NCBI GenBank assembly: GCA_016178685.1
Contig: JACOSU010000081.1
Location: 722 to 64,721 of the forward strand
Direction of reading: 5' to 3'
Length of the DNA stretch: 64,000 bases
Source of the DNA: Candidatus Eiseniibacteriota bacterium
GTDB taxonomy: Bacteria; Eisenbacteria; RBG-16-71-46
The notes under the pieces are model-generated. The model had not been told where the DNA came from, searched no databases, and was given only the letters and a program-made list of their open reading frames with translations. The first letter of the stretch is position 1; each line of letters starts with the position of its first letter. A program made the position numbers and the translations under genes. Positions 1,431 to 48,839 of the stretch are shown here, piece after piece.

Positions 1431-2363
1431 TCAGTATGCGCCCTCCCGGGACAGCACGGCGGGGATGGTGCGCAGGAGGATCTTGAGGTCGAGCATCGGG
1501 GACTGCTGCCGGATGTATTCGAGGTCGAGCCGCATCCACTCCTGAAACCCGATGCGGCTGCGACCGCTGATCTGCCACAGGCACGTGAGGCCGGGGCGCA
1601 CATCGAGGCGGTGCAGCTGCCATGGCTCGTACTGCGCCACCTCCTCGGGAATCGGCGGCCGCGGGCCCACCAGTGACATCTCGCCGGCGAGCACGTGGAA
1701 GAATTGCGGGATCTCGTCGATGCTGGTGCTGCGCAGGAAGCGGCCAATGCGTGTGATGCGCGGATCGTTGCTGATCTTGAAGACCGGTCCGTCCGCTTCG
1801 TTCAAGTGCGTGAGGTGGTGGCGGTGACGATCCGCTCCGTTCACCATCGAGCGCAGCTTGTAGAACGTAAACGGCCGGCCACCCCGGCCGATGCGCGTGG
1901 ACTTGTAGAATACCGGGCCTCGCGACTCCAGCTTGATCGCGAGCGCGGCGAGCAGCAGCACCGGCGATGTCAGCACCAGCGCGACCGTGGCGCCGAACAG
2001 ATCGAGAACGCGCTTTCCGGCTCGGGAGTAGAACCCTTGCTCGCGCTCGAGGGCCAGATGGGCCACTCCCTGCGGCACCGAAGCCAGCGAGACGGAGGCT
2101 CCGACCGTGACCCACAGGCGCGCCTCCGCGGCATGCTCAACGCCGTTGGAGTGAGCAGCGCGCGCGACGCCGTTGGTGGCATGCGGATGAGGAGCCGTCG
2201 AAGTGTAGGCCGGCGCGGCTGTCATGCTGAGACTCTCCACCGGGAGGCTGGACGCGGTAGGCTGGACCCGCGCGGACCACTCGGGTTCGCGGGCCATCGG
2301 TTCGCTGGGGGTAGCGAGGACGTCGGGCTCCATGATGCCGCTCTGATGTTGTGCCGCCCGCAC
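1431..2363 (-). CDS. Polyprenyl-phosphate sugar-phosphotransferase (bacterial sugar transferase, WbaP/PglC-like initiating enzyme). The N-terminal start is uncertain (alternative M at 2333).
   Basis: The C-terminal domain carries the hallmark motifs KLRSM, DEIPQFFHVLAGEMSLVGPRP and TCLWQISGRS, and there is a TM helix before the catalytic domain. Confidence 0.85.
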   Translation of the reverse strand: MRAAQHQSGIMEPDVLATPSEPMAREPEWSARVQPTASSLPVESLSMTAAPAYTSTAPHPHATNGVARAAHSNGVEHAAEARLWVTVGASVSLASVPQGVAHLALEREQGFYSRAGKRVLDLFGATVALVLTSPVLLLAALAIKLESRGPVFYKSTRIGRGGRPFTFYKLRSMVNGADRHRHHLTHLNEADGPVFKISNDPRITRIGRFLRSTSIDEIPQFFHVLAGEMSLVGPRPPIPEEVAQYEPWQLHRLDVRPGLTCLWQISGRSRIGFQEWMRLDLEYIRQQSPMLDLKILLRTIPAVLSREGAY

Positions 2364-2819
2364 AAAAAAACCGGGGGGATAGAAAACCCCTCGGTCAAAG
2401 CTCCCGCTTCATCCGTTCGGACAGAGTCCTGGACTGGTCGAGTGCGAGCGACGGGGGAAACAACAAGATGTCGAACCTCGGATGCATGTCCTGGCTACTT
2501 GCCAGGCAGCCGGGCAACTTCACGGGCCCGGTTGTGTGGCTCGCTCTTCAACGACGAACCCAGTTAGCAATGGATCCGCGCTGTCCCCTCCGGTGGTGAG
2601 ATTCTCTTCTGCTGCGGACAGAAGTTACGTTAGCAAAGGCCTGACAGCGAATCAAGTACCAAAGAGGGGCCACGGGAAGGCCTCTCCAGGGTCCCCGGTC
2701 GGGGGGCGGCATCGCGGCACGAAATCGGCATAGAATGAGCGTCGTCAGACTTCCAGCAAGATTCGGCCCCCTGCGGCGATAGGGGCCGTCGGGTCGATGG
2801 AACAACCCCGGGGAGCGCC
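2364..2819. promoter_or_regulatory. Long (~450 bp), noticeably lower-GC divergent intergenic region between the sugar-transferase operon (minus strand) and the GT-C/GT2 operon (plus strand). It probably holds divergent promoters or operators, and an sRNA is possible.
   Basis: No credible ORF is present. GC is lower than the flanks and there is an A-run (cacaaaaaaacc). A small imperfect inverted repeat ccgggggg-atagaaaa-cccctcgg lies near 2370..2400. It sits between divergently transcribed genes. Confidence 0.35.
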
Positions 2820-4340
2820 GTGGCAGGCATTGAAAATGCGCGTCCAGTGCGGCTGAAATCAAGCCCGCGCCGCGGTTCGGCCGGGGCGGGCGAAGCCCGG
2901 GTGAACGGCGGCCTGGATCGCGCGCCCGCGGCGGGCCTGGGGCAATCCACCCCGCTCGCGGCGCATTCTCCCCTTCCGGCACGGGTCGCGGAACCTGGCC
3001 CGCGCCCGGCAGACGCGGGTTCGGCCCGGATCTCGATCGCGATCTGGCTCGCTCTCGCAGCCGCGTTCGTGGCCTCGCGCGCACCCCTCATTTCTCATGG
3101 TTACGGATCCGATCCGGACGCGTGGCGGAACGCGGTGGCCGCGCTTCACATGAGGGCCGCGGGCCGCTACATCCCATCGCGGCCCCCTGGATTCCCCGTT
3201 TTCGAAGGGCTGATGGCGCTGCTCGTTCCCTGCGGATGGATCGCGACCAATCTCGCGGCGGTGATCGCCGAGCTCGGTGCGATCGCAGCGTTCGCGATGG
3301 TGCTCGCACGACGCGGCGTGCGCGAGAGGCTGTGGCCGCTGATCGCGTTCGCGTTCGGTGCGGCGCTGTGGGTGCATGCCACGCAGACCATGGATTACGC
3401 GTTCGGGCTCGCGTTTTTTCTCGCCGCCTACGCGGCACTGCTCTCGCGACAATTCACGTGGGCAGGCGTGATGCTGGCGCTCGCCGTCGGCTGCCGTCCG
3501 AGCTATGGCCTGCTGCTGGTCCCCGCGGCGACGTTTCTCTGGATGCGCGGCCGGCTCGCCGCCGTCGTTTCATTCGCGGTCGGATTCGCGCCGGCCGTGC
3601 TCGTGGTCGAAGCCCCGGTGCTGTTCGCTCCCGAAACGCGCGACCTCGCGGGTCATCTCGCGCGCCACGCCGCGCATCACGCCACGGGCTCGACGCTGAT
3701 CCCGCTGCTGCGGGGGTCGGTGGTGTTCCTGATCGGCAAATGGGCGGCGGCTGCGTTCGCGATCGCGGTTCCGCTCGCCGCGGCGCGGCGCATGCGAGGT
3801 TCGCGGCCCGCGGAAGCACCGCCCGATCGCGCGGCGTTCGCGTTCGAGGTGCTCGCCGCGGTCGCGGTCGCTGGCTTCTTTCTCGTCATCCCGTATGAAC
3901 CGGCGTACTTGCTGCCCGTGCTGCCGCTGATTCTGATCACGGCCGCTCGTGCACTGCCGCGGCCCTGGACGGCGGTGGTCGCGATCGCGATGGCGCTTCA
4001 GTCCCTCCTGTCGTTCGAGTTTGCCGATCGTCGTCTTGCTCCGGGCGACCTGTTCGTCGAGCTGGCCGAGCGGCACGCCCTGCTCGACCGGTCGAACTCC
4101 CAGCTTGCCGCGCGCCCCACGGCACCCACCGCGTACACGATCGGGCGCTTCGGCATCCACCGGCTGATCGCGCTGGGTGGCGGCCTCGAGGTCGGTGCCG
4201 CCGGATGGTCTTCGTTCAGCGCTTCCGGGGTCGCGCTGCAATCGAGCGACGGGCGGCGCATCTACGCCGAGCGGTTCACCGCGGCCGGGGCGGAAAGCTT
4301 GAGAAACTCGGGCTGGCGGATCCGGGGTGAGGCTCCGTGA
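2820..4340 (+). CDS. GT-C family polytopic membrane glycosyltransferase (ArnT/PMT_2-like). The true start is probably downstream of 2820.
   Basis: There are more than 10 hydrophobic helices. The first loop, SHGYGSDPDAW...RYIPSRPPGFPVFEGLMALLVP, resembles the ArnT/PMT periplasmic loop. Its neighbour is a DPM1-like GT2. Confidence 0.55.
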   Translation: MAGIENARPVRLKSSPRRGSAGAGEARVNGGLDRAPAAGLGQSTPLAAHSPLPARVAEPGPRPADAGSARISIAIWLALAAAFVASRAPLISHGYGSDPDAWRNAVAALHMRAAGRYIPSRPPGFPVFEGLMALLVPCGWIATNLAAVIAELGAIAAFAMVLARRGVRERLWPLIAFAFGAALWVHATQTMDYAFGLAFFLAAYAALLSRQFTWAGVMLALAVGCRPSYGLLLVPAATFLWMRGRLAAVVSFAVGFAPAVLVVEAPVLFAPETRDLAGHLARHAAHHATGSTLIPLLRGSVVFLIGKWAAAAFAIAVPLAAARRMRGSRPAEAPPDRAAFAFEVLAAVAVAGFFLVIPYEPAYLLPVLPLILITAARALPRPWTAVVAIAMALQSLLSFEFADRRLAPGDLFVELAERHALLDRSNSQLAARPTAPTAYTIGRFGIHRLIALGGGLEVGAAGWSSFSASGVALQSSDGRRIYAERFTAAGAESLRNSGWRIRGEAP

Positions 4341-4517: not shown

Positions 4518-5282
4518 GTGACGTTCTGGCTCACTCTTCCCGCCTACAACGAGGAACGTTCGCTCCCCGCGCTGCTCGAGCGCTGCGTACCGCTCGCGCG
4601 AGACCTTGATGCGATGGGAGAGCGGCTTCGCGTGCTGGTGGTGGATGACGGCAGCCGGGACGGGACCATCGCGGCGGCGCGAACCTTCGAAGGCCGGCTC
4701 GGGATCGAGGTGGTGCCGCACGTCGTCAACCGCGGCCTGGGCGCTGCGCTCAGAACCGGGATCGCAGCGGCGCTCGAGCGCGCCTCGGACGACGACCTGA
4801 TCGCGACCATGGACGCCGATAACACGCACGATCCGGCGCTGATTCCCGAGCTGCACCGGCGCATGCGCGAAAAGAGCGCCGACGTGGTGATCGCGTCGCG
4901 CTACGCGCCGGGCGGCGCGGAAGTGGGGCTGACCTCGCTGAGAAGGGTGCTCTCGCGCGGCGCGAGCTTCCTCCTCACGGTCATGACTCCGGTCGCGGGC
5001 GCTCGCGATTACACGTGCGGCTTCCGGCTCTATCGCGCCTCGACGCTCCGGCGCGCGGCCCGGGCCTGGGATGACGCCCTGATCGAGGAGGCGGGCTTCA
5101 CGTGCATGGCGGAACTGCTGCTCAAGCTCGGGCGCGGCGGCGCGCGCGTGGCCGAATCGCCTCTGGTGCTGCGCTACGACCTCAAGGAGGGCGCCAGCAA
5201 GATGAAGATGATGCGCACCATCTCGCGCTATTTCGCGCTGATCCGCCGCATCCGCTCGCGACCGCTGCCGCGCGTGGCGTGA
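4518..5282 (+). CDS. GT2 family polyprenyl-phosphate glycosyltransferase (DPM1/ArnC/GtrB-like).
   Basis: Motifs LTLPAYNEE, VVDDGSRDGT, DADNTHDP and a C-terminal amphipathic tail. GTG start at 4518 is preceded by GGAGG at 4507..4511. Confidence 0.8.
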   Translation: MTFWLTLPAYNEERSLPALLERCVPLARDLDAMGERLRVLVVDDGSRDGTIAAARTFEGRLGIEVVPHVVNRGLGAALRTGIAAALERASDDDLIATMDADNTHDPALIPELHRRMREKSADVVIASRYAPGGAEVGLTSLRRVLSRGASFLLTVMTPVAGARDYTCGFRLYRASTLRRAARAWDDALIEEAGFTCMAELLLKLGRGGARVAESPLVLRYDLKEGASKMKMMRTISRYFALIRRIRSRPLPRVA

Positions 5283-5369: not shown

Positions 5370-7001
5370 ATGAGCCTCCATCGTGACGCGCCGCCGACCG
5401 GCAACGCCGCCGGCGCGCGCAAGCGAGTGCCGTTCGGTGACGTGTTCACAATCGGGCTCGCGGCGCTGGGCGCGCGGCTCTTCGCGTTGCCCGGATCGGG
5501 GCCCGAAACTCTGGGGCCCGACTCCGCCCATTTTCTCAATGTCGCCCGCTGCTTCGTCCGCGGCCAGGGTTTCTCGAATGTCGAAGCGTGGCCGTCGTGG
5601 ATGCACCCGGCGCGACTTCCGAGCCCCGAGACGTTCAAGGAGCCGGCCTATTCGTGGCTGATCGCTGCGGGGGCGCGCCTCGGCTGCGATCCGTTCGCCA
5701 CCGGCCGGATGATCGCGCTCTTGGCGGGCATTCTGATCCCATGGCTGACCTACGCGCTCGCGCGCGCCATCCATCCGGAACGCAGAGTGGCGCTGCTCGC
5801 GGGGCTGCTCGCGGCGTGCAGTCCGCTCTTGATTCAGCATTCCGTGGTGGTGACGGCCGACACGCTGTTCGCCGCGCTCACGACCGCCATGTTTCTCGCG
5901 GCCTGCGAGGGAGCGCGCGCGACCGGAGCCGTGCGCAGGTCGGTGTTCGACCTCGCCACCGGAGCCTGCTTCGGTCTCGCCTACCTGACGCGGGCCCAGG
6001 TGATGCTCGCGGTCCCCGCGCTCCTCGTGCTGTGGCTCGGACGCCCTACCCTGAGGTCGCGGCTTCAGAGCGTGGCGCTCGCGTTCTCCGCCGCCGTGGT
6101 GCTCGCTTCGCCCCTGCTGCTGCGAAATCTCCGGCAGTTCGGCGAGCCGCTCCACAGCGACGTGGTGCGGCTCGGCATCCTGCCGTACCTGGACCAGTTC
6201 GTGGTCTACAACTCGATCGACCTGCCCCCGGCAGCGATTCCCTACGCGCTCGCCCACCCCGCGCAGGTGGCCGCGCGCGTCGCCTCGAGCCTGCAAGGCC
6301 TGGCGCTGTCCACGTTCCCGCACAACATCCTCGGTCATCCGGTCTGGATGCTGCAGTTCGTCGCGGGGTTGCTGCTCGGACTCGGGCAGCGACGAGCACT
6401 CGGCTTCGCGTATCTCTACGGTGCGGTGACCGTCGCCTTCATCGCCGCCGTGTGGTGGGCGCCCTATTATTTCTGCAGCCTGACGCCGATCGCCTGCCTG
6501 TTCACCGCGATCGGCGCGGGCTGGATCGCCGATCGGATCGGCGATGTGCCGCTGGCTGGACCGGTCACCGGGGGTGCCCTGTTGTTCGCGACGCTCGCCG
6601 TGACGCTTCTGCTTCAGGTCGGCGTCGCGCGCCGCGATGTGCGCGCTTACCACGACCCGGAACTTGCCGCAACGCTGCACGAGGCTCCGTTCCTGCGCGC
6701 GCACCTGGCGCCCGGCGAATCCGTGATGGTGATGAAGACGTCGTACTGGGCCTGGTTCACCGACCACCCGGCCGTGAGCTTCACGCTCGCGGACGAGCCG
6801 CGTTTCATGGAAGTGATCCGGCGCCTTCGGGTGCGTTACGCGGCGCTGCCCACCAGCCTGTTGCCGAAGCTGGCCGCCCGGTCGCCATCGGGACGCCTGC
6901 CGCGCTCGCTGGTGTTCGATCACGCGGATTCCGCGCGCGATGTGACGGTGTTCCGGATCGAGGATCCGGCCGGTGCCGAGGGCGGCCATGCCACTCGATG
7001 A
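5370..7001 (+). CDS. GT-C family membrane glycosyltransferase (ArnT/GT83/GT39-like).
   Basis: N-terminal TM region then PAYSWLIAAGARLGCDPFATGRMIALLAGILIPWLTYALARAI, a typical ArnT/PMT_2 core. About 12 TM helices plus a C-terminal soluble domain. Confidence 0.7.
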   Translation: MSLHRDAPPTGNAAGARKRVPFGDVFTIGLAALGARLFALPGSGPETLGPDSAHFLNVARCFVRGQGFSNVEAWPSWMHPARLPSPETFKEPAYSWLIAAGARLGCDPFATGRMIALLAGILIPWLTYALARAIHPERRVALLAGLLAACSPLLIQHSVVVTADTLFAALTTAMFLAACEGARATGAVRRSVFDLATGACFGLAYLTRAQVMLAVPALLVLWLGRPTLRSRLQSVALAFSAAVVLASPLLLRNLRQFGEPLHSDVVRLGILPYLDQFVVYNSIDLPPAAIPYALAHPAQVAARVASSLQGLALSTFPHNILGHPVWMLQFVAGLLLGLGQRRALGFAYLYGAVTVAFIAAVWWAPYYFCSLTPIACLFTAIGAGWIADRIGDVPLAGPVTGGALLFATLAVTLLLQVGVARRDVRAYHDPELAATLHEAPFLRAHLAPGESVMVMKTSYWAWFTDHPAVSFTLADEPRFMEVIRRLRVRYAALPTSLLPKLAARSPSGRLPRSLVFDHADSARDVTVFRIEDPAGAEGGHATR

Positions 7002-7214: not shown

Positions 7215-7889
7215 ATGCACCGCGATCTGAAGCTCAGCGTCGTCATCCCCTGCTATAATGAAGAAGATGGCGTGCGCGAAGTCATCGGGCGCATGCCGAA
7301 GGCGGTGGATGAAGTCGTCGTCGTCGACAACAACTGCACCGACCGCACGGCCGAGGTGGCGCGCGGCCTGGGGGCGCGGGTGGTGACCGAGACCACACCG
7401 GGCTACGGTGCGGCCTACAAGGCCGGATTGCGCGCCGCCTCGGGGGACGTCGTCATCACGCTCGACGGCGACGGCACCTACCCGCCCGAAGAGATCCCGC
7501 GGCTGGTGGAGGAACTCGTGGACCATGGCTGGGACTTCCTTTCGGCGAGCCGCTTTCCGCTCACCGACCCGAACGCCATGCAGTTCACGAACCGGCTCGG
7601 CAACGGGGTGCTGACGGTGGCGACGGCGGTGTTGTTCTTCAAGCCGATCCGCGACAGCCAGTCGGGGATGTGGGTGTTCCACCGCAGCGTGCTCGATCGC
7701 ATGCGCCTCACGTCCGACGGCATGGCGTTCAGCGAGGAGATCAAGCTCGAGGCCCTGCTGCGGGGCCTCAAGTTCGGAGAGGGTCACATTCCGTACGGAG
7801 AGCGCATCGGCGAGGTGAAACTTCAGAAGTGGCGCGACGGCTGGGAGAATCTCGCATTCCTGGTGCGGAAACGTTTGGGAGCGGTGTGA
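7215..7889 (+). CDS. GT2 family glycosyltransferase (DPM1-like polyprenyl-phosphate sugar synthase).
   Basis: MHRDLKLSVVIPCYNEEDGV, VVVDNNCTDRT, ITLDGDGTYPPEE and FSEEIKLEAL. ATG at 7215. Confidence 0.8.
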   Translation: MHRDLKLSVVIPCYNEEDGVREVIGRMPKAVDEVVVVDNNCTDRTAEVARGLGARVVTETTPGYGAAYKAGLRAASGDVVITLDGDGTYPPEEIPRLVEELVDHGWDFLSASRFPLTDPNAMQFTNRLGNGVLTVATAVLFFKPIRDSQSGMWVFHRSVLDRMRLTSDGMAFSEEIKLEALLRGLKFGEGHIPYGERIGEVKLQKWRDGWENLAFLVRKRLGAV

Positions 7890-9346: not shown

Positions 9347-9410
9347 GCCGCACCTCTGCGCCACGGCCCATCGCGGCGCCGGATCCGCGGCCCGGGATCG
9401 GGAAGACGCC

Positions 9411-15693: not shown

Positions 15694-15760
15694 CGGAAGC
15701 GATCCGGCATGCGCTGAAGCTTGCGAAGCGCGGCGTGCCGCCCTCGCCCGGGATGCGGCC

Positions 15761-27938: not shown

Positions 27939-27941
27939 GTC

Positions 27942-28190: not shown

Positions 28191-28192
28191 CG

Positions 28193-29338: not shown

Positions 29339-29356
29339 CGCCAGGGACCTAGGGAC

Positions 29357-40743: not shown

Positions 40744-41120
40744 GCGTTCCCCCGCGGGACACCGGCCGGGCCGCGCAGGGATTCGATCTGGTTCTGCAGC
40801 AGCCCCAGTTCGCGGGTCAGAACGCGATTCTCGCGGCCGAGACGCGACATCTGGATCGACATGTAGAGCAGCATCACGACCCCGAACGTGACTCCGAACG
40901 CGAACGCGGTCGAGCTTTCGTAGAGAATGCCCATGGCCCGCGTGATCGCCTGAAGCAGCGGCGTACTGAACCCGAGCGCTGCCATCGCGAGCGACGACAC
41001 CACCCACAGCAGTGAGTATTCCTCGGAAAGCCGGCGGCGGCGCACCAGCTCCAACACGATCAGCACCAGCGCCACCGCGCCGAACGCGAAGATCGCCTGG
41101 GTGCGCGAGAGAAAGTGCAT
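40740..41120 (-). CDS. Small membrane protein (DUF2304-like), GT2 partner. Paralog of 14810..15211.
   Basis: 126 aa: MHFLSRTQAIFAFGAVALVLIVLELVRRRRLSEEYSLLWVVSS...LTRELGLLQNQIESLR. Same architecture as the plus-strand copy. Confidence 0.55.
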   Translation of the reverse strand: MHFLSRTQAIFAFGAVALVLIVLELVRRRRLSEEYSLLWVVSSLAMAALGFSTPLLQAITRAMGILYESSTAFAFGVTFGVVMLLYMSIQMSRLGRENRVLTRELGLLQNQIESLRGPAGVPRGNA

Positions 41121-41131
41121 GGAACCCTCCT

Positions 41132-43432: not shown

Positions 43433-44575
43433 TCACGCGGCGCTCCCCGTGAGCGCGTCGAGCTCCGACTCGAGAAATCCGCGCACGTCCCGCAGGTGCC
43501 CGACCTCTCGCGGGATCGGACGGTTGGACCACAGCAGGGCCGCCATGTCGGGGTGAGAGGGATCGTAGCCGTGCATGGCCGCGAGCGGACTCGTGCCCAT
43601 GAACGAGGGCACCATCAGAACGCCGGGATCGAGCAGGAACAGGTCTTCCCCGTACGCCGCGTCCGCGAACCGGGTTCCTTCGCGATCGAGATCTCCGGCA
43701 TCGAGCCAGCGGCCGGGCGCGCCTTCGAGCGCCGCGCGCACGGATTCGCGTGCCGCCCGACGGCGCCACCAGAATCGCGCCATGGTGGAATCGAAGAACG
43801 CGACGTAATCGCGCGGCCAGCCTACGGCGAGGCCCGCGAGCCGGGCCATCACATCCTCCGTGCGCGCCACGTCGACCATGCCGTGATCGGACAGCAGGTA
43901 GATCCACAGATCCTCGCCGCTCCGCTTCGCGCGCTCGGTCAGCCGCCCCACCACGGCGTCGTAGCGCGAAAGCGATTCGCGCACGCCGCTCCCGCGGCTG
44001 CCTTCGTGATGAAGCTGCGCGTCGAGATCCGCGGTGTAGACGAACAGGAATTCAGTGCTCTCGAGCTCGCGCTCGAGCCACGCCAGGTTGTCCTGCTCCG
44101 GCGTGCGCCAGTCGCGGTGAGCCCAGGGGACGCCGCTCTTTTCGAGCGTGTCCCACAGCGAAGGCAGCGGCAGGCCGCCCGGCGAAAACACATCGGCGCG
44201 CTCCGCGAGATCGAATTCCGCGAGGATCGGGCGCGGGACCTCGTAGAGGTTGAAGTATCCGCGCACGCCGCGGCGCCGGACCAGTCGCGTGAGGGCGCGG
44301 GACAGCATTCCGCTGCTCTGGAGCCGCTTCGGGAGCGCACGAAGCGCGCCGAAGCCGCGAAACGGCGAATCTGCGGAGCGGCGGCGATACATGAGAAAGC
44401 GACCGTGTTCGCACGGCATCCGCCCGGTGAACAGGGTGGGCAGGGCGCCAGAACTGAAACCCAGCACGGTGTCGAGCTTGCGCCGGTGTTCGAGCGGCGC
44501 CGCGAATCCCGGCGCCGCCGACGCCAGGTTCCAGCCCAGAGCGTCCACCAGCAGCACCACCATGCGGCGCTTCAT
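43433..44575 (-). CDS. Alkaline-phosphatase-superfamily enzyme of the type I phosphodiesterase / nucleotide pyrophosphatase (NPP, PF01663-like) family.
   Basis: MVVLLVDALGW (metal-binding Asp) and SSGALPTLFTGRMPCEHG (the T-x-P-x-x-x-TG-x-x-P-x-x-HG NPP motif). Also LLSDHGM and MHGYD. ATG at 44575 overlaps the upstream stop (ATGA). The N-terminal 150 codons of the track ORF were rejected. Confidence 0.65.
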   Translation of the reverse strand: MKRRMVVLLVDALGWNLASAAPGFAAPLEHRRKLDTVLGFSSGALPTLFTGRMPCEHGRFLMYRRRSADSPFRGFGALRALPKRLQSSGMLSRALTRLVRRRGVRGYFNLYEVPRPILAEFDLAERADVFSPGGLPLPSLWDTLEKSGVPWAHRDWRTPEQDNLAWLERELESTEFLFVYTADLDAQLHHEGSRGSGVRESLSRYDAVVGRLTERAKRSGEDLWIYLLSDHGMVDVARTEDVMARLAGLAVGWPRDYVAFFDSTMARFWWRRRAARESVRAALEGAPGRWLDAGDLDREGTRFADAAYGEDLFLLDPGVLMVPSFMGTSPLAAMHGYDPSHPDMAALLWSNRPIPREVGHLRDVRGFLESELDALTGSAA

Positions 44576-45813
44576 CGCGCTTCCTCGCTGCGCTGGCCAT
44601 CCAGGATCCAGCGATCCCACGCCCGCACCGCCATGGCCGCGGCCGCGCTCCACCCGGCCGCGCCGCCGGCCGGGATCACGCCCAGCCGGGCGAGCGCGGC
44701 ATTCGCCCGCGGCGCGAGCGCGGCCTCCCGCGGGAACGGCGCGTCGCGCGGATCCACCGGGGTTCCCGGCTCGAGCGCCGCGAGCAACAGGATCGCGGCC
44801 GAGGCATTCAAGCGATGTTGCGGCGTTCCGGCCGGCGCGAATCGCCAGCGGTTCCACGCCGATGGTCCGAGAGCGCCGCGCGTATCGAACGCTATCGCCT
44901 GCCGGACCCGGCTGCGAAAGCGGGAGCGGGAAGCGCTCGCGAGCGAGAGCGCGAAATCGTCGAGCGTCGCGGACCCGGCGATCGCGCGGGCGCGCCGCCG
45001 CCATGCAACGCACCACGCGCGCACCACGCGCTTCCATTCATCGTGGGCCTCGGAGCGTGAGGCCAGGAGCGTGGGTTCGCGGCGCCACGCCAGAGCGGCA
45101 TCCCACAGCGCCGTGGCCGACCCGTCCCTGGCCGCGTGCGTTCGAGCCCACTCCACGCGCGCCGCCGCACCGTCGGGCCACGCGCCGCGCTCGAGCGCCG
45201 CGACCGAGGCGAGGTCGAGCGCGACCTTGAGCGTCGCGTGCCGCGCGCGCCAGCGATCGAGCGGTGAGCGGCCGAGCGACGCGTGCGCGGCGAGCAGCTC
45301 GAAACCGCGATTCTCGAGCAGCAGCGTGATCTCTTCGCTCGTGACGTCGCCCGGTGCGTGATCGGGCACGCGATCGAGCCACGACGGTTCGCCTTCGAGC
45401 ACGCGACCGTGCCGTCGCAGTTCGAGCGTGCCGGGGCGCGCGCAGAGACGGGTGAGGCCCTCGGCCGTCAGGAATGCGGCCTCGAGCGGCGCCGCGAGCC
45501 CCGCATCGAGCAGCCTCGCGGCCAGCGTGGGCCGCGCGTCGCGTGCCCGGGCCCGGGCGGCGCGGCAGGAGGATTCGTCCGCGAGCACGACGTAGAGATC
45601 CACATCCGAAAGGCTGACCCGCCTTCCTTCCCACGCGATCCACACCGCCTCGGTGGTCGCGTGGCTGCCCGAGAGCAGCACCGCGCGCCGGGCCGGGCCC
45701 GCCCACGCGAGCGCGATTTCGAGCACGGCGTCCGGGGGGCCCGAAGCGAACGAGCCCGTGCGATCGGAATGGGACGGCACGGGCTCCTCGTGACTGTGCT
45801 GGAGCGGGATCAT
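44572..45813 (-). CDS. Hypothetical protein, possibly with a minimal nucleotidyltransferase (Pol-beta-like) fold.
   Basis: LLSGSHATTEAVWIAWEGRRVSLSDVDLYVVLAD fits the GS...[DE]xD nucleotidyltransferase signature. The rest is uncharacterised. Co-operonic with the NPP-family enzyme. Confidence 0.4.
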   Translation of the reverse strand: MIPLQHSHEEPVPSHSDRTGSFASGPPDAVLEIALAWAGPARRAVLLSGSHATTEAVWIAWEGRRVSLSDVDLYVVLADESSCRAARARARDARPTLAARLLDAGLAAPLEAAFLTAEGLTRLCARPGTLELRRHGRVLEGEPSWLDRVPDHAPGDVTSEEITLLLENRGFELLAAHASLGRSPLDRWRARHATLKVALDLASVAALERGAWPDGAAARVEWARTHAARDGSATALWDAALAWRREPTLLASRSEAHDEWKRVVRAWCVAWRRRARAIAGSATLDDFALSLASASRSRFRSRVRQAIAFDTRGALGPSAWNRWRFAPAGTPQHRLNASAAILLLAALEPGTPVDPRDAPFPREAALAPRANAALARLGVIPAGGAAGWSAAAAMAVRAWDRWILDGQRSEEAR

Positions 45814-45832: not shown

Positions 45833-46627
45833 TCAGATGCGGCGGTAGATGAACTCCGGAATCTCGAGCAGACGCCGGTTGAGCACGCTGCCCAGCACCC
45901 GCGCGCCCGCCTTGCGCAGCAGGTCCACCGAGCGGCTGAGCACGGGCTTCTTGGTGCGGCCCGCCTCGACCACCATCACGACACACTCGGCCACCGCTGC
46001 CAGCGAGGAGGCTTCCGCTGCGTAGAGCACCGGCGGGCCGTCGAGCACGATCCAGTCGTAGCGCGAGCCGAGCGCATCGAGCCGCGCTTCCAGGTCGGCC
46101 GGCGAGTAGATCTCCGTACCGCGAATCGCCTCGGGCACCGGCAGCAGGTCCACGACCGGGGCGCCTTGCGCATCGCTCCCGACGCCGAACAGGCCCGCCA
46201 GCGAGCCCGGTTCTCCCGGCCGAAGCGCGGGGCGCTGTGCGTTGGCATCCACGAACAGCACGCGAGAGCGAGGATCGCTGGCGAGCGCGATCACGAACTG
46301 CGCGGCGACGGTGCTGGTGCCCTCTCCCCCCTGCGCGCTCATGAAGACCACGGTGCGCGGCTCCCGATCCACGATCGACGACTCGAGGCTTACGCGCAGC
46401 GTGGTCATCTCGCGCATCACCTGATCCGGAAGGCCGGCCAGCACCGTCGCATGGAGCACCGTCGCCTGGGCCGCGGAGCCGAGCGCGCGGGCCGCAGAAT
46501 GGGCGGACGACGAAGGAATCGGCGTGACGGACGCGGGCGGCGGCGTCATCGCCGGAGCCGCCAGCGCGGGTGGTGGCGCGGAGCGCCCGGCCTCGGCTTT
46601 TCTCAGGGCGTCAAAGATCCGGCTCAT
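45833..46627 (-). CDS. Bacterial tyrosine (BY) kinase-type P-loop ATPase (Wzc C-terminal domain / EpsG/CpsD-like chain-length regulator ATPase).
   Basis: Walker A is VVFMSAQGGEGTSTVAAQFVIALA, Walker A' is VLFVDAN and Walker B is DWIVLDGPPV. ATG start at 46627 (MSRIFDALRKAEAG); an alternative GTG lies at 46651. Confidence 0.7.
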   Translation of the reverse strand: MSRIFDALRKAEAGRSAPPPALAAPAMTPPPASVTPIPSSSAHSAARALGSAAQATVLHATVLAGLPDQVMREMTTLRVSLESSIVDREPRTVVFMSAQGGEGTSTVAAQFVIALASDPRSRVLFVDANAQRPALRPGEPGSLAGLFGVGSDAQGAPVVDLLPVPEAIRGTEIYSPADLEARLDALGSRYDWIVLDGPPVLYAAEASSLAAVAECVVMVVEAGRTKKPVLSRSVDLLRKAGARVLGSVLNRRLLEIPEFIYRRI

Positions 46628-46652
46628 GTGCGGGGCCTTCCTCCTCGACACA

Positions 46653-48017
46653 TCAACGGGCCCGGCGCCGCTCGTTGAGCGTCGCCAGCACCGGAAGTTC
46701 GAGAGCTTCCTCGGCCTGGCTGGCGGTTCTCACCGTCAGGTCGAGGCCGTCGAGAAAGAACGCCAGCCCGATGCCCACCACCAGGCTGAACATGGGCGCG
46801 AGCGCCAGACGCACGTAATCGTGCGTGGTCTTCGAGGTGGCCCGGCCGGCCGGGCTCATCAGAACGATGCTCAGCGTCGGCGTCGTGTGCTGCGTGACGC
46901 GAGCCTGGTCGCTGACCCTGGACAGGTTTTCGAGGCGCGTCCTGAGCACGCCGATCTCGCGGTCCATCTCGGCCAGCCTGACCTGCTGGTCGGGCACGAC
47001 GGCCAGCTGGGTCTGGTAGGTGGCGAGGTTGCGATCGATGACCCGGCCCGAGGATTCGAGCGCGTGGATGCGCGCGTTCGACATGTCCATGCGCGTTCCC
47101 ACTTCCCGATGCAGAAGATTTCGTAGCGTATCGAGCGTCGCGGTCGCGTTCACCACTTCGGGCGAATCGTCGCGGTAGTGCTCCCGCAGCGTCGCGACCC
47201 GGGTCTCCTGATCGAGCACCTTGCGTTTGAAATCGACCAGCGCGTCGCTCGAGCCCTGGCCGCCCAGACCCGGCAACTCGATGTCCTGGCGGTCACGCAT
47301 GGTCTCCATGGCGGCCACCGTCGAACGCATCTGCGCGAGATCCGCGTCGAGAGCGTCACGCTTCTTCTGCAGATCGCCGATCAGGTTCACGAGGCTTCGG
47401 GTCTGCTCCTCCGTGTCTGCGATGTGATTCTCATTCGTGAAGCGACGCCGGCGCTCCACCCAGTCCTCCAGTTCCTTCCGCACCCCCAGGATCTCGCCCT
47501 CGAAGAAGCCCTCGGGATAGCTCAGCGTCATGACGTTCTGGTGGTAATCGATGTAGGCGCTCAGCATCGCCCTGCACACCTGCTGCGCGATGATGGGATC
47601 GCGGTCCTCGTAGGCGAGCGCCACCAGGTTGCTCTTGCCCACGACCTCGGCATCCACCCGGCGCACGTCGATGCGCGGCACGGCGCCGGCGGACTCCTTC
47701 TCGAGAATCTTTCTCGCGAGCTCGAGGACGGGACCGCTGCGCGCGATCGCCATCTCGGTCGCCAGGTCGGATTCCCAGTCGTTCATCACCCGGCGGTCGG
47801 GCACCAGCACGCTCTGCTGTTCACCGCGCTTGATGAGGATGCGCCCGCTCGACACGTAGGACTTCGGCGTGCTGAGGGCGATCACCACCACCGTGACGGT
47901 CGCGACCGCGAACAATCCGATGATCAGCCACTTGCGCCGGAACACCACGGCGAGGAATTCGCGCGCGGTCGCCTGGCGGCCGGGGGCGGGGGCAAACTGC
48001 AGGGGGTTGTCGTTCAT
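46653..48017 (-). CDS. Polysaccharide co-polymerase / chain-length determinant protein (Wzz/PCP family, EpsF-like).
   Basis: TM1 (WLIIGLFAVATVTVVVIALS), a long coiled-coil periplasmic region, a C-terminal TM2 (FSLVVGIGLAFFLDGLDL) and a basic tail. Confidence 0.7.
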   Translation of the reverse strand: MNDNPLQFAPAPGRQATAREFLAVVFRRKWLIIGLFAVATVTVVVIALSTPKSYVSSGRILIKRGEQQSVLVPDRRVMNDWESDLATEMAIARSGPVLELARKILEKESAGAVPRIDVRRVDAEVVGKSNLVALAYEDRDPIIAQQVCRAMLSAYIDYHQNVMTLSYPEGFFEGEILGVRKELEDWVERRRRFTNENHIADTEEQTRSLVNLIGDLQKKRDALDADLAQMRSTVAAMETMRDRQDIELPGLGGQGSSDALVDFKRKVLDQETRVATLREHYRDDSPEVVNATATLDTLRNLLHREVGTRMDMSNARIHALESSGRVIDRNLATYQTQLAVVPDQQVRLAEMDREIGVLRTRLENLSRVSDQARVTQHTTPTLSIVLMSPAGRATSKTTHDYVRLALAPMFSLVVGIGLAFFLDGLDLTVRTASQAEEALELPVLATLNERRRAR

Positions 48018-48026
48018 GGCGATCGG

Positions 48027-48839
48027 CTACTTATGACCCGGGACGATGAACACCCGGTCGAGGTTGAACAGCTCCCAGCCCTCGAAGGCGAACGAGGTGA
48101 CGTTCGTCAGGCCGCCGAAGAACATCCGCGTGAACACCTCGATGTTGCCGACGGTCGAGCGCGGCACGTACACGATGTCGAAGCGCGACAGCCGCAGATC
48201 ACCCTTCAGGCCGCCGAACTTGAGAACGTCGTCCACCCGGACCTCGGCCACGCGCACCGTATTCGCGCCGTTGCGGTTGAACACGAGAACGTTGTTCCGG
48301 GCGGCGCCCTCCTTGAATCCCCCCGCCGCGGTGATGGCCTGGACCACGGTCATGTAGGGGTCCGCGGTCACCGGTCCGACCCTCACGACTTCGCCGATCA
48401 CGTGAACCTGGTTCACGGCCAGCCTTGACAGCTCGACGATCACCCGCGGAGCCCGGATGTCGCCCGCCAGGAGTTTGACCAGCGCGCCTTCGAGCTCGCG
48501 AGGCGTGCGCCCGGCCGCGATCACGTCGCCGACCGGGAACACAGAGATGCGCCCGTCGGGACGGACCACCATTTCTCTCAGGATATCGCCGTTCAGATCC
48601 GCGCGAGGTCCAAAATCGAGCGTGAGCTCGTCGCCGGGAACGATCCGGTACTCGGGGACCGAGCTCCAGTCGAGCGCGAGCGAGTCGGCGTCTCCATAGG
48701 ACGAAGCGGGGGTCAGATCGGCATGCGGCGCCGGGGTCGTCTCGGCGTGCGATGCGCTGAAAATCGCTGCCGTGGACGCGAGCGGGGCGCCGGCGAGCAG
48801 CGCGGCCGCGAACCACGGACGCAGAACGTTTCGAATCAA
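48027..48839 (-). CDS. Outer-membrane polysaccharide export protein (Wza/OPX family; Poly_export + SLBB domains).
   Basis: Signal peptide MIRNVLRPWFAAALLAGAPLASTAAIFSA. Also PEYRIVPGDELTLDF, SVFPVGDVIAAGRTPRELE and VIGEVVRVGPV (SLBB). TTG start with GAGGAG 5 nt upstream. Confidence 0.8.
   Translation of the reverse strand: MIRNVLRPWFAAALLAGAPLASTAAIFSASHAETTPAPHADLTPASSYGDADSLALDWSSVPEYRIVPGDELTLDFGPRADLNGDILREMVVRPDGRISVFPVGDVIAAGRTPRELEGALVKLLAGDIRAPRVIVELSRLAVNQVHVIGEVVRVGPVTADPYMTVVQAITAAGGFKEGAARNNVLVFNRNGANTVRVAEVRVDDVLKFGGLKGDLRLSRFDIVYVPRSTVGNIEVFTRMFFGGLTNVTSFAFEGWELFNLDRVFIVPGHK

What the first reader, a model, noticed from the sequence alone, without database searches (positions are those of the whole stretch)
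1431..48839. About 47 kb continuous surface-polysaccharide island with exosortase/PEP-CTERM-type marker genes but no exosortase or PEP-CTERM substrate in view
Nearly every gene from 1431 to 48839 belongs to one polysaccharide or glycoconjugate assembly system. The parts are listed in the summary and feature table; the count of 15+ glycosyltransferases and the two-flippase, one-polymerase, Wza/Wzz/kinase arrangement are what define it as a single system. Several members match families defined by their association with exosortase A (EpsH) loci. These are the FemAB-related protein (TIGR03019-like), the polysaccharide deacetylase with an FDIEDWFH N-terminus (TIGR03006-like), the AMP-forming ligase (TIGR03098-like) and the EpsE/F/G-like Wza/Wzz/kinase trio. 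Yet I find no 8-TM exosortase and no PEP-CTERM protein in 64 kb. Either they lie just outside the window, or this lineage uses the accessory set without exosortase. The second case would be worth describing.
Basis: partly seen in the sequence, partly recalled or inferred. Interest (0 to 1): 0.55.

Follow-up and report, generated by a model that had tools for sequence, protein, structure and literature searches.

The report
Eisenbacteria envelope-glycan island, no exosortase
This is a very large, real cluster of cell-surface sugar-polymer genes from an uncultured Eisenbacteria genome; two of its genes resemble helpers of the exosortase protein-sorting system, but the cluster is an ordinary polysaccharide assembly locus with many membrane glycosyltransferases and no exosortase nearby.

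Summary
The island is real. It runs off the left edge of the window; in relatives about 7-8 kb more of sugar genes follow there. The source is a Candidatus Eisenbacteria MAG.

None of the six named "exosortase markers" reaches its NCBIfam cutoff:
- FemAB-like protein: 250 against 260, close. Relatives score 245-278, so the clade straddles the cutoff.
- Deacetylase: 232 against 276.
- "Ligase": 342 against 592. It is an amino-acid adenylation enzyme.
- Wza/Wzz/kinase-like trio: 26-52% of their cutoffs. The "kinase" lacks the Walker A lysine.

No exosortase or PEP-CTERM protein turned up in the window or in 84 related loci (842 kb in total, with positive controls). In reference loci, xrtA lies 2-14 kb from FemAB.

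What is there is a composite system:
- Wzx/Wzy-type machinery.
- Four GacI/PpgS-like GT2 enzymes that probably make lipid-phosphate sugars, two with DUF2304 partners.
- Seven to eight GT-C enzymes, including an orphan family shown here to have the GT-C fold.

Whether the genome has an exosortase elsewhere could not be tested. Haft (2006) already noted that these accessory families have homologues in PEP-CTERM-negative genomes. Interest is modest.

The parts
1..1341 (-). g01: GT-C glycosyltransferase (PMT_2). Truncated by the left window edge, so the island continues beyond the window.
   Evidence: PF13231 at 35.3 bits against a cutoff of 26.1. Homologues of 53-61% identity in 7 Eisenbacteria MAG loci.
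1431..2333 (-). g02: small polyprenyl-phosphate glycosylphosphotransferase, the initiating enzyme.
   Evidence: Bac_transf at 220 bits. TIGR03025 at 292 against 295.55, C-terminal half only. TIGR03013 (the XrtA type) at 167.6 against 393.
2901..4340 (+). g03: membrane protein with about 11 TM helices, unassigned. Candidate GT-C only.
   Evidence: No Pfam or NCBIfam hit. TM estimate. No significant profile match to the g10 family. Absent from syntenic relatives.
4518..5282 (+). g04: small GT2, polyprenyl-phosphate-sugar-synthase-like.
   Evidence: PF00535 at 88.8 bits. Best NCBIfam hits are PpgS and ArnC, all below cutoff.
5370..7001 (+). g05: GT-C (PMT_2).
   Evidence: PF13231 at 54 bits and PF02366 at 29 bits.
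7215..7889 (+). g06: small GT2, dolichyl/polyprenyl-phosphate hexose transferase-like.
   Evidence: PF00535 at 94 bits. NF041391 at 132 and AglJ at 126, both below cutoff.
7886..9346 (+). g07: Wzy_C-family polymerase or ligase.
   Evidence: PF04932 at 53.8 bits against 31.7. TIGR03097 at only 28.9 against 188.
9411..10478 (+). g08: FemAB-like GNAT-fold protein (Acetyltransf_6), at the edge of TIGR03019.
   Evidence: TIGR03019 at 250.1 against 260.35, full length. 35.8% identical to D. vulgaris FemAB. Relatives score 244.6-277.9. NCBI name is "GNAT family N-acetyltransferase".
10475..10981 (+). g09: hexapeptide-repeat acyltransferase.
   Evidence: PF00132. Conserved directly after FemAB in relatives.
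10978..13116 (+). g10: orphan GT-C-fold glycosyltransferase with about 15 TM helices and a periplasmic C-terminal domain.
   Evidence: No Pfam or NCBIfam hit. Family of 51 hypothetical proteins. AlphaFold2 pLDDT 92.7, pTM 0.93. The 20 best PDB matches are all GT-C enzymes: DPY19, STT3/PglB, AftA, ArnT. No conserved Cys.
13209..13919 (+). g11: small GT2 (GacI/PpgS-like). 48% identical to g34.
   Evidence: PF00535 at 79.5 bits. PpgS at 85 bits, below cutoff. Paralogy.
13916..14794 (+). g12: polysaccharide deacetylase (Polysacc_deac_1 + DUF3473).
   Evidence: TIGR03006 at 231.8 against 276.2. Pfam. 38% identical to the D. vulgaris XrtA-locus deacetylase.
14822..15211 (+). g13: DUF2304 small membrane protein (GacJ/Rv3632 family).
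   Evidence: PF10066 at 90.7 bits. Role of GacJ and Rv3632 from bioRxiv 10.1101/180810.
15208..18219 (+). g14-g16: an unknown 161-aa protein, a weakly GMC-oxidoreductase-like protein, and a fragment-like NAD-binding protein.
   Evidence: Only sub-threshold hits.
18241..19893 (-). g17: probable GT-C (PMT_2, borderline).
   Evidence: PF13231 at 25.9 bits against 26.1. About 9 TM helices.
19970..21463 (-). g18: unknown, with a faint SGNH-like match.
   Evidence: NF047474 at 18.7 bits only.
21860..22864 (-). g19: GT4 glycosyltransferase.
   Evidence: PF00534 at 135 bits. TIGR03088 at 82 against 409.
22981..25167 (-). g20: fused Zn-ADH and GFO/IDH/MocA oxidoreductase. Sugar oxidation is the inferred role.
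   Evidence: PF00107, PF08240, PF01408 and PF22725.
25456..27195 (+). g21: GT-C (PMT_2).
   Evidence: PF13231 at 31.9 bits and PF02366 at 27.3 bits.
27297..30940 (+). g22-g25: hexapeptide acyltransferase, 82-aa carrier protein, PigA/RedW-like carrier-protein dehydrogenase, and stand-alone adenylation enzyme.
   Evidence: g25: TIGR01733 at 389 against 317 (passes), TIGR03098 at 341.6 against 592 (fails). g24: NF053553 at 453.7 against 500, full length. g23: PP-binding.
30899..33216 (-). g26, g27: GT4 glycosyltransferases.
   Evidence: PF13692, PF00534 and PF13439. Not TIGR03087/03088/04063 members.
33213..34115 (-). g28: unknown 300-aa protein.
   Evidence: No hit.
34163..36889 (-). g29: 908-aa membrane protein with about 12 TM helices, a distant relative of g10. 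Probable GT-C.
   Evidence: hhalign against the g10 family: probability 94%, E=1e-7 over 351 columns.
36886..38400 (-). g30: MOP/Wzx-type flippase.
   Evidence: PF13440 at 47 bits and PF01943 at 35.5 bits.
38517..39725 (+). g31: DegT/ArnB/PseC-type sugar aminotransferase.
   Evidence: PF01041 at 425 bits. ArnB at 390 and PseC at 374, both below cutoff.
39748..43416 (-). g35-g34-g33-g32 operon: Wzx-like flippase, small GT2, DUF2304, flippase-like protein. Its layout resembles GacK-GacI-GacJ.
   Evidence: PF01943 at 75.6; PF00535 at 93.9; PF10066 at 67.1; PF03706 at 168. TIGR00374 at 66.8 against 43.2. Paradigm.
43433..45813 (-). g36: alkaline-phosphatase/phosphodiesterase-family protein. g37: unknown.
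   Evidence: PF01663 at 57.4 bits. g37 has no hit.
45833..46459 (-). g38: BY-kinase-like P-loop protein, probably not catalytic.
   Evidence: TIGR03018 at 59.6 against 230.65. Walker A reads GEGT where D. vulgaris has GEGK. One Tyr in the last 25 residues, against 4 in D. vulgaris.
46653..48017 (-). g39: Wzz/PCP-like co-polymerase.
   Evidence: TIGR03007 at 86.2 against 278.85. PF02706 at 23.5 against 25.5.
48027..48839 (-). g40: Wza-type outer-membrane polysaccharide export protein. Right end of the island.
   Evidence: Poly_export at 52.5 bits plus SLBB. TIGR03027 at 94.7 against 180.

Best explanation
The region is a large, mosaic biosynthesis island for envelope glycans in an uncultured Candidatus Eisenbacteria bacterium. 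It spans at least 49 kb of the window and probably about 57 kb with its left flank. It is not an exosortase (XrtA/PEP-CTERM) locus.

Two known kinds of machinery are combined.

(a) A Wzx/Wzy-type route.
- A small phosphoglycosyltransferase (g02) starts a lipid-linked repeat unit.
- Cytoplasmic GT4 enzymes extend it (g19, g26, g27, and more beyond the left edge).
- A MOP flippase exports it.
- The Wzy_C protein g07 polymerises or ligates it.
- A Wzz-like protein (g39), a probably inactive kinase-like partner (g38) and a Wza-like exporter (g40) take it across the outer membrane.

(b) A side-chain route on the periplasmic face, of the GacI/GacJ/GacL or PpgS/Rv3632 type.
- Four small GT2 enzymes (g04, g06, g11, g34) make polyprenyl-phosphate monosaccharides. 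Two of them sit beside DUF2304 activator-like proteins.
- Flippase-like proteins move these donors across the membrane.
- Seven or eight GT-C enzymes transfer the sugars onto the polymer: g01, g05, g17, g21, g10, g29 and perhaps g03.

Tailoring enzymes are embedded in the island.
- A FemAB-like aminoacyl/acyl transferase, a deacetylase and two hexapeptide acyltransferases.
- A cassette of carrier protein, adenylation enzyme and dehydrogenase.
- An aminotransferase and oxidoreductases.

The FemAB-like and deacetylase genes are homologues, at or just below threshold, of the XrtA-associated pair. In this lineage they are wired to an orphan GT-C rather than to an exosortase.

Shown: the family and fold assignments, the synteny, and the absence of a linked exosortase. 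Inferred: the order of steps, the substrates, and whether there is one product or several.
For: Source and conservation
- The FemAB-like protein is 100% identical to MBI1798812.1 from a Candidatus Eisenbacteria MAG, on a 69,189-bp contig.
- Syntenic loci occur in 7 Eisenbacteria MAGs and in L013-L016.

Family assignments
- The small GT2 enzymes best match the polyprenyl-phosphate sugar synthases PpgS, ArnC and AglJ, and a dolichyl-phosphate hexose transferase.
- DUF2304 proteins g13 and g33 score 90.7 and 67.1 bits.
- GacJ (DUF2304) activates the GT2 GacI, and Rv3632 stimulates PpgS (bioRxiv 10.1101/180810).

GT-C enzymes
- The g10 model has pLDDT 92.7. Its top 20 PDB matches are all GT-C enzymes, with E-values of 3e-8 to 4e-4.
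- g29 is related to g10.

Not an XrtA locus
- All named markers are below their cutoffs.
- tblastn with D. vulgaris exosortase, EpsI, PEP-CTERM proteins, XrtA-associated ATPase and TIGR03016 outer-membrane protein found nothing in the window or in 12 of the related loci.
- Eight diverse exosortases and an HMM built from them found nothing in 85 loci (842 kb). The best score was 13.6 bits, on a sugar-transferase ORF. The control scored 396 bits.
- The PEP-CTERM motif scan found 0 hits, against 3 of 3 in the control.
- In bona fide plasmid loci xrtA lies about 2-14 kb from FemAB: D. vulgaris, Vibrio, Sphingomonas and Photobacterium.

Left flank in relatives
- A UDP-sugar dehydrogenase, five glycosyltransferases and NDP-sugar enzymes.
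Against: - No biochemical data exist for any of these proteins, and the glycan product is unknown.
- The GT2 matches to polyprenyl-phosphate sugar synthases are all far below the equivalog cutoffs.
- g03 remains unassigned. g17 and g39 sit just below Pfam thresholds.
- The genes lie in at least six transcription blocks on both strands. The gene content next to the core module differs between relatives. So one system has not been separated from several adjacent systems.
- FemAB is upstream of the g10 homologue in only 25 of 43 informative loci.
- The rest of the genome could not be examined. That includes the 5.2 kb of the source contig lying outside the window. An exosortase acting in trans is not excluded.
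- One relative's FemAB passes TIGR03019 (277.9). The clade is therefore at the fringe of that family, not clearly outside it.
Confidence: 0.7

Rival explanations
1. This is a standard XrtA/EpsH locus, and its exosortase and PEP-CTERM genes lie just outside the 64-kb window.
For: The best NCBIfam hits of g08, g12, g38, g39 and g40 are XrtA-associated models. The source contig has 5.2 kb outside the window that could not be read.
Against: - All scores are below their cutoffs.
- The right flank is housekeeping: carAB, an M16 peptidase and PNPase.
- In seven relatives, the 8-10 kb beyond the left edge holds a UDP-sugar dehydrogenase, glycosyltransferases and NDP-sugar enzymes.
- No exosortase or PEP-CTERM protein in 842 kb from 85 loci of the clade, with working positive controls.
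- Other hallmark genes of the D. vulgaris locus are also missing: XrtA-associated ATPase, TIGR03016 outer-membrane protein, EpsI and the TIGR03013 glycosyltransferase.
Confidence: 0.03
2. The genome has an exosortase/PEP-CTERM system at a distant locus. That system works together with this island in trans, with sorted proteins attached to or embedded in the polysaccharide made here.
For: - FemAB proteins of the clade straddle the TIGR03019 cutoff (244.6-277.9).
- Relatives also carry an AsnB-type amidotransferase whose best hit is the XrtA-associated TIGR03108 (595.6 against 816.9).
- A preprint proposes that in Sphingomonadales, exosortase systems may depend on exopolysaccharide clusters located elsewhere (10.64898/2025.12.21.693542).
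Against: - There is no direct evidence for any exosortase in Eisenbacteria. None was found in 842 kb.
- No held paper mentions Eisenbacteria together with exosortase or PEP-CTERM.
- In four of the five distinct plasmid-borne FemAB loci that carry the TIGR03019 name or were unannotated, the exosortase is physically linked.
Confidence: 0.2
3. Much of the island glycosylates proteins (S-layer or other envelope proteins) or lipids rather than building a secreted polysaccharide. In this reading the PMT_2-type GT-C enzymes act as protein O-glycosyltransferases and the Wzy_C protein acts as an O-oligosaccharyltransferase or ligase.
For: - PMT_2/PMT matches for g01, g05 and g21.
- The closest structural matches of g10 include protein-modifying GT-C enzymes: DPY19, STT3 and PglB.
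- Wzy_C is the same Pfam family as the O-antigen ligases.
Against: - A Wzz-like protein and a Poly_export/SLBB exporter are present. These are typical of polymer export.
- ArnT and AftA, which modify a lipid and a polysaccharide, match g10 about as well.
- No acceptor protein was identified.
Confidence: 0.12

Closest known systems
XrtA/PEP-CTERM (EpsH) exopolysaccharide locus, for example D. vulgaris Hildenborough plasmid pDV1 (locus L011)
   Same: - It has a deacetylase and a FemAB-like pair, 38% and 36% identical to g12 and g08.
- It has a DegT aminotransferase, a Wzy_C/O-antigen-ligase-family protein, a flippase, GT4 enzymes and hexapeptide acyltransferases.
- It has an exporter, a chain-length protein and a kinase-like protein.
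   Different: - The window has no exosortase, EpsI, PEP-CTERM proteins, XrtA-associated ATPase, TIGR03016 outer-membrane protein, full-length TIGR03013 transferase or sigma-54 regulator.
- All shared families score below the XrtA-specific cutoffs.
- FemAB and the deacetylase are separated by an acyltransferase, an orphan GT-C and a GT2 rather than being adjacent.
- The many GT-C enzymes and the GT2+DUF2304 modules have no counterpart in the D. vulgaris locus.
GacI/GacJ/GacK/GacL side-chain pathway of Streptococcus pyogenes group A carbohydrate, and M. tuberculosis PpgS/Rv3632 (with the GT-C Rv3779, recalled from memory)
   Same: A small GT2 makes a polyprenyl-phosphate sugar. A three-TM DUF2304 partner accompanies it, a Wzx-type or flippase-like protein moves the donor, and a GT-C transfers the sugar outside the cytoplasm. 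The window has GT2+DUF2304 twice: g11/g13, and g34/g33 with g35 and g32.
   Different: - The GT2 scores are far below the PpgS equivalog cutoff (66-97 against 370).
- The organism is a diderm of a different phylum.
- There are far more GT-C enzymes here (7-8), including an orphan family.
- Donors and acceptors are unknown.
Wzx/Wzy-dependent group-1-like capsule or EPS systems (Wza-Wzb-Wzc type)
   Same: A phosphoglycosyltransferase, GT4 enzymes, a MOP flippase, a Wzy_C protein, a Wzz-like PCP and a Poly_export/SLBB exporter.
   Different: - The kinase-like partner lacks the Walker A lysine and the C-terminal tyrosine cluster.
- No phosphatase was found.
- The exporter is short (270 aa).
Chelatococcus daeguensis plasmid pTAD1 EPS locus (L012)
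   Same: It carries a FemAB protein and a deacetylase that NCBI does name as XrtA-associated. They sit in an EPS locus with no exosortase within 20 kb on either side, as here.
   Different: It is proteobacterial, and its proteins carry NCBI's XrtA-associated family names. Its chromosome was not examined, so an exosortase may exist elsewhere. Two plasmid records with exosortase hits were not listed.

Membership tests
XrtA/PEP-CTERM (exosortase A) EPS system | An exosortase gene (EpsH/XrtA; PF09721, TIGR02602, TIGR03109) in or near the locus | tested here: not met
   No Pfam or NCBIfam hit in any called gene. tblastn and an HMM built from 8 exosortases found nothing in the window or in 84 related loci, while the control scored 396 bits. 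The genome outside these loci could not be tested.
XrtA/PEP-CTERM (exosortase A) EPS system | PEP-CTERM substrate proteins (TIGR02595, PF07589) | tested here: not met
   No family hit. A six-frame scan for the motif plus TM helix plus basic tail found 0 hits in 842 kb, against 3 of 3 in the D. vulgaris control.
TIGR03019 (FemAB family, XrtA-associated) | Score at or above the curated cutoff of 260.35 | tested here: inconclusive
   The window protein scores 250.1, below the cutoff. Relatives score 277.9, 247.8 and 244.6, so the clade straddles the cutoff. NCBI names the window protein only "GNAT family N-acetyltransferase".
TIGR03006 (XrtA system polysaccharide deacetylase) | Score at or above the curated cutoff of 276.2 | tested here: not met
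   231.8 for the window protein and 217-227 in three relatives. It is the best-hitting family and aligns over full length.
TIGR03098 (acyl-CoA ligase, exosortase A-associated) | Score at or above 592.35. From memory of the model description, members sit next to a PLP-dependent decarboxylase (TIGR03099). | tested here: not met
   341.6 against 592.35. The protein passes TIGR01733 (amino-acid adenylation) at 389 against 317.4. Its neighbours are a carrier protein, an acyl-CoA-dehydrogenase-family protein and a hexapeptide transferase, not a decarboxylase.
TIGR03027 / TIGR03007 or TIGR03017 / TIGR03018 (XrtA-type exporter, chain-length protein, autokinase) | Scores at or above 180, 278.85 (or 422.75) and 230.65 | tested here: not met
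   94.7, 86.2 (or 65.4) and 59.6.
BY-kinase (bacterial tyrosine autokinase) | An intact Walker A GxxGxGK[ST] motif and a C-terminal tyrosine cluster | tested here: not met
   g38 has GEGT aligned to GEGK of the D. vulgaris kinase. It has one Tyr in the last 25 residues, against four in D. vulgaris.
Wzx/Wzy-dependent polysaccharide pathway | Initiating phosphoglycosyltransferase, MOP flippase, Wzy-family polymerase, PCP and OPX exporter | tested here: met
   Bac_transf at 220 bits; Polysacc_synt and Polysacc_synt_3 (g30, g35); Wzy_C at 53.8 against 31.7; Poly_export plus SLBB. The Wzz hit is only 23.5 against 25.5, and TIGR03007 reaches 86 bits.
GacI/GacJ/GacL-type (PpgS/Rv3632-type) lipid-phosphate-sugar side-chain pathway | A small GT2 polyprenyl-phosphate sugar synthase, a DUF2304 partner, a flippase and a GT-C transferase | tested here: inconclusive
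   All four component types are present at Pfam or fold level. GT2 scores against the characterised equivalogs are far below cutoff. Activity cannot be tested here.
GT-C glycosyltransferase superfamily (for g10) | The GT-C membrane fold with a periplasmic domain | tested here: met
   The AlphaFold2 model has pLDDT 92.7. The top 20 Foldseek matches in the PDB are all GT-C enzymes, with probability 1.00 and TM-scores of 0.32-0.53. There is no sequence-level match to PMT_2 proteins or to PDB sequences.

The most novel reading that the evidence does not exclude
Eisenbacteria lack exosortase and PEP-CTERM proteins altogether. Yet they conserve the "XrtA-associated" tailoring genes: FemAB-like protein, deacetylase and, in most relatives, an AsnB-type amidotransferase. 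These score at about family-threshold similarity and are wired to a lineage-specific orphan GT-C enzyme. This would show that the cassette modifies the glycan itself and does not need protein sorting. It would also give a clean background in which to work out its chemistry, which remains uncharacterised.
Probability: 0.35. Interest if true: 0.45.

Novelty: new member of a known kind. Interest (0 to 1): 0.28.

Why it matters
The result gives a first annotated picture of the envelope-glycan machinery of an uncultured phylum, Candidatus Eisenbacteria. That machinery depends unusually heavily on periplasmic GT-C enzymes fed by lipid-phosphate sugars.

It also assigns a fold to a previously unannotated membrane protein family. 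The g10 family has 51 database members plus 73 metagenome loci.

For annotation practice, it is a caution. Best hits to models labelled "XrtA-associated" do not imply an exosortase system when scores are below the cutoff. The original description of the system already said that these accessory families occur in PEP-CTERM-negative genomes.

If the phylum truly lacks exosortases, the conserved FemAB/deacetylase module would be a good place to study what that cassette does to a polysaccharide.

Tried and rejected
Attempts to read the source contig
- Exact-product look-ups of window genes failed, or returned only a 1.9-kb read-assembly contig.
- An exact 50-mer from the window's left end was absent from metagenome contigs.
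- The source genome is not among the GTDB representatives; the best relative is 61% identical.
- The 5.2 kb of the source contig outside the window, and the rest of the genome, therefore stayed unread.

Attempts to classify g10 and g03 by sequence
- The g10 profile showed no relation to the g01 (PMT_2) family profile by hhalign.
- Profiles of both families found nothing in PDB sequences.
- Only the structure prediction resolved g10.
- g03 against the g10 profile was not significant, so g03 is left unassigned.

Ideas rejected
- g10 as a divergent exosortase: rejected, because it has no conserved cysteine and has the GT-C fold.
- g32 (331 aa, about 8 TM helices) as an exosortase: rejected, because it is a strong LPG_synthase_TM/TIGR00374 flippase-like protein.
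- g25 as an XrtA-type ligase: rejected.

Other negatives
- There are no tRNA genes or Rfam matches in the window.
- No held paper links Eisenbacteria with exosortase or PEP-CTERM.

Not attempted
- A database search with an exosortase query. Only the best 120 hits are listed and there is no taxon filter, so it could not show presence or absence in this phylum.

Full report
**1. Gene calls and source**

The window is 65-73% G+C, so raw ORF lists are full of spurious frames. A codon-usage log-odds gene caller gave 52 genes, g01 to g52.

The FemAB-like protein is 100% identical to NCBI protein MBI1798812.1, annotated [quoted passage not shown]. It lies on a 69,189-bp contig. The neighbouring membrane protein carries locus tag HYR73_03920.

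The source genome is not among the GTDB representative genomes. The closest relatives there are Eisenbacteria MAGs at 53-61% identity for g01.

**2. Is the observation true?**

Yes for the island. From g02 (1431) to g40 (48839), nearly every gene with an assignable family is glycan-related. The parts are:
- a small phosphoglycosyltransferase, g02;
- four small GT2 enzymes: g04, g06, g11, g34;
- three GT4 enzymes: g19, g26, g27;
- PMT_2-type GT-C enzymes g05 and g21, with g17 at 25.9 bits against a cutoff of 26.1;
- a Wzy_C protein, g07;
- two MOP flippases, g30 and g35;
- a third flippase-like protein, g32;
- two DUF2304 proteins, g13 and g33;
- a DegT aminotransferase, g31, and oxidoreductases g15 and g20;
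- two hexapeptide acyltransferases, g09 and g22;
- a FemAB-like protein, g08, and a deacetylase, g12;
- a carrier-protein cassette, g23-g25;
- a phosphodiesterase-family protein, g36;
- a Wzz-like protein (g39), a kinase-like protein (g38) and a Wza-like protein (g40).

Three large polytopic proteins had no family hit: g03, g10 and g29.
- For g10 I collected its family: 51 proteins, all "hypothetical" and without Pfam domains. I aligned 44 of them. The AlphaFold2 model has pLDDT 92.7 and pTM 0.93. Its 20 best matches among solved structures are all GT-C glycosyltransferases: DPY19, STT3/PglB, AftA and ArnT.
- g29 is a distant relative of g10 (hhalign probability 94%, E=1e-7).
- g03 stays unassigned.

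The left boundary is wrong. g01 (1-1341) is a PMT_2 GT-C enzyme cut by the window edge. In seven syntenic relatives it is followed by a UDP-sugar dehydrogenase, five more glycosyltransferases and NDP-sugar enzymes.

The right boundary at 48839 holds. Downstream lie a GSU2086-family protein, a DUF3108 protein, an aminotransferase, a carbamoyltransferase group, carAB, an M16 peptidase and PNPase.

**3. The "exosortase marker" claim**

| Protein | Model | Score | Cutoff |
|---|---|---|---|
| g08 | TIGR03019 | 250.1 | 260.35 |
| g12 | TIGR03006 | 231.8 | 276.2 |
| g25 | TIGR03098 | 341.6 | 592.35 |
| g38 | TIGR03018 | 59.6 | 230.65 |
| g39 | TIGR03007 | 86.2 | 278.85 |
| g39 | TIGR03017 | 65.4 | 422.75 |
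| g40 | TIGR03027 | 94.7 | 180 |
| g07 | TIGR03097 | 28.9 | 188.1 |
| g02 | TIGR03013 | 167.6 | 393 |

- g25 passes the amino-acid adenylation model TIGR01733 (389 against 317.4). It is not the XrtA-type ligase.
- The GT4 enzymes are not members of the XrtA-associated families TIGR03088 or TIGR04063.
- g38 has Thr where the Walker A lysine should be, and it lacks the C-terminal tyrosine cluster.

Two resemblances are nevertheless real.
- g08 and g12 align over full length with the XrtA-associated models. They are 36% and 38% identical to the adjacent pair in the bona fide XrtA locus of D. vulgaris plasmid pDV1.
- In relatives the FemAB scores are 277.9 (RBG_16_71_46, which passes), 247.8 and 244.6. 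The deacetylases score 217-227. An AsnB-type amidotransferase that the window lacks scores 595.6 against 816.9 on TIGR03108.

So the clade sits at the fringe of the FemAB family and just outside the deacetylase family.

**4. Is an exosortase nearby?**

The reference loci show what to expect.
- In D. vulgaris pDV1 the exosortase is about 14 kb from FemAB. PEP-CTERM proteins, EpsI, the XrtA-associated ATPase, the TIGR03016 outer-membrane protein and a sigma-54 regulator are in the same locus.
- In the Vibrio alfacsensis, Sphingomonas parapaucimobilis and Photobacterium replicons, the exosortase match lies about 2 kb from FemAB.

In the window, none of these proteins gives a tblastn hit, and no gene hits an exosortase or PEP-CTERM model.

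I then assembled 85 loci of this clade, 842 kb in all:
- the window;
- 7 loci from genome contigs;
- 4 loci from FemAB homologues;
- 73 metagenome loci found with the g10 family profile.

I searched them with eight diverse exosortases: a Desulfovibrio xrt, XrtA (two), XrtB, XrtD, XrtV, one acidobacterial and one planctomycete. I also searched with an HMM built from them.
- Nothing was found. The best hit was 13.6 bits, on a sugar-transferase ORF.
- Every panel member found the control exosortase, and the HMM scored it at 396 bits.
- A PEP-CTERM tail scan found 0 hits, against 3 of 3 in the control.

An exosortase just outside the window is therefore very unlikely. A standard EpsH locus is excluded for practical purposes.

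**5. How novel is "accessory genes without exosortase"?**

Haft et al. [quoted passage not shown] They added that only EpsH lacks homologues in PEP-CTERM-negative species (PMC1569441).

Chelatococcus daeguensis plasmid pTAD1 carries a FemAB protein and a deacetylase that NCBI does name XrtA-associated. They sit in an EPS locus with no exosortase within 20 kb on either side. That plasmid does not appear among the 40 listed exosortase-bearing plasmids; two further records were not listed.

Whether Eisenbacteria genomes hold an exosortase elsewhere could not be tested with the tools available. No held paper mentions the two together.

**6. What the island most likely does**

Two known mechanisms appear to be combined.

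*Wzx/Wzy-type assembly and export.* The components are g02, the GT4 enzymes, a MOP flippase, g07, g39, g38 and g40.

*Side-chain addition on the periplasmic face.*
- The four small GT2 enzymes best match the polyprenyl-phosphate sugar synthases PpgS, ArnC and AglJ, and a dolichyl-phosphate hexose transferase. All of these matches are below cutoff.
- Two of them sit with DUF2304 proteins: g11 with g13, and g34 with g33.
- The g35-g34-g33-g32 operon reads flippase, GT2, DUF2304, flippase-like.
- In S. pyogenes the DUF2304 protein GacJ binds and activates the GT2 GacI, which makes the GlcNAc-phosphate-undecaprenol donor for side-chain attachment. In M. tuberculosis the GacJ homologue Rv3632 stimulates PpgS (bioRxiv 10.1101/180810). 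That GacL is the GT-C that uses the GacI product is my recollection, not read in the passage retrieved.
- The seven or eight GT-C enzymes here would use such donors.

*The conserved core.* Across relatives it is Wzy_C, (AsnB), FemAB-like, hexapeptide transferase, the g10-type GT-C, (GT2), deacetylase, (DUF2304).
- FemAB lies upstream of the g10 homologue in 25 of 43 informative loci.
- The deacetylase lies downstream in 29 of 35.
- A plausible but untested chemistry is de-N-acetylation of an amino sugar, followed by re-acylation or aminoacylation by the FemAB-like enzyme.

*One system or several.* The genes are spread over at least six strand blocks. The content next to the core varies between relatives. 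There are two or three flippases. I therefore cannot say that this is one system rather than two or more adjacent pathways.

**7. Verdict**

- The locus is a new member of known kinds of polysaccharide machinery in a little-studied phylum.
- The most interesting reading still open is a phylum-wide loss, or primary absence, of exosortase with retention of the FemAB/deacetylase/amidotransferase cassette. That needs whole-genome HMM searches that could not be run here.

Noticed in passing
window 27297-30940 (+): An NRPS-like cassette sits inside the glycan island. It holds a hexapeptide acyltransferase, an 82-aa carrier protein, a dehydrogenase and a stand-alone amino-acid adenylation enzyme. The dehydrogenase's best full-length hits are the prolyl-carrier-protein dehydrogenases PigA and RedW (453.7 bits against a cutoff of 500). 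The adenylation enzyme passes TIGR01733. This suggests that a carrier-bound amino acid is oxidised and then transferred onto a sugar..
   Followed up: partly
window 52542-56024 (+) and 60445-61620 (-): A DUF5989 protein, a small TM protein, a NodU/CmcH-type carbamoyltransferase and the SGNH/GDSL-like protein g47 lie next to carB/carA. g50, on the other side of carAB, is a 54% identical paralogue of g47. This may be a carbamoylation module fed by carbamoyl phosphate, which would extend glycan-related genes to about 61.6 kb..
   Followed up: no
window 10978-13116 (+); alignment A3: The g10 family has no Pfam or NCBIfam model. It has 51 database members and 73 metagenome loci, mostly from soil and sediment. 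Its invariant residues include D178, H182, D198, H375, K508, D562, R632 and R665, and it has a confident GT-C fold. It is a candidate for a new family definition..
   Followed up: yes
window 45833-46459 (-): The BY-kinase-like protein has Thr in place of the Walker A lysine (GEGT against GEGK) and only one Tyr near its C terminus. It is probably a non-catalytic partner of the Wzz-like protein..
   Followed up: partly
window 9346-9411, compared with L013 7890-9818, L014 8038-9966 and L016 7969-9912: Relatives carry a roughly 645-aa AsnB-type amidotransferase between Wzy_C and FemAB. Its best hit is the XrtA-associated TIGR03108, at 595.6 against 816.9. The window has only a 64-bp gap at that position, so the gene has been lost or was never gained in this genome..
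   Followed up: partly
window 22981-25167 (-): g20 is a 728-aa fusion of a zinc alcohol-dehydrogenase-type module and a GFO/IDH/MocA oxidoreductase module..
   Followed up: no
window 2901-4340 (+): g03 is a membrane protein with about 11 TM helices. It has no family hit and no counterpart in the syntenic loci of relatives. It carries a short SDxDAW...PP..P.F.G stretch that resembles the first-loop motif of g10, but the profile match is not significant..
   Followed up: partly
L015 (GCA_035632955.1, contig DASQFU010000025.1): A MAG labelled Candidatus Limnocylindria (Chloroflexota) carries the same module of FemAB, hexapeptide transferase, g10-type protein and deacetylase. Its FemAB is 51% identical to the window's. 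This points to horizontal transfer or to a binning error..
   Followed up: no
window 49169-50796 (-): A GSU2086-family protein (391.8 bits against a cutoff of 250) and a DUF3108 protein lie immediately downstream of the island. Their function is unknown..
   Followed up: no
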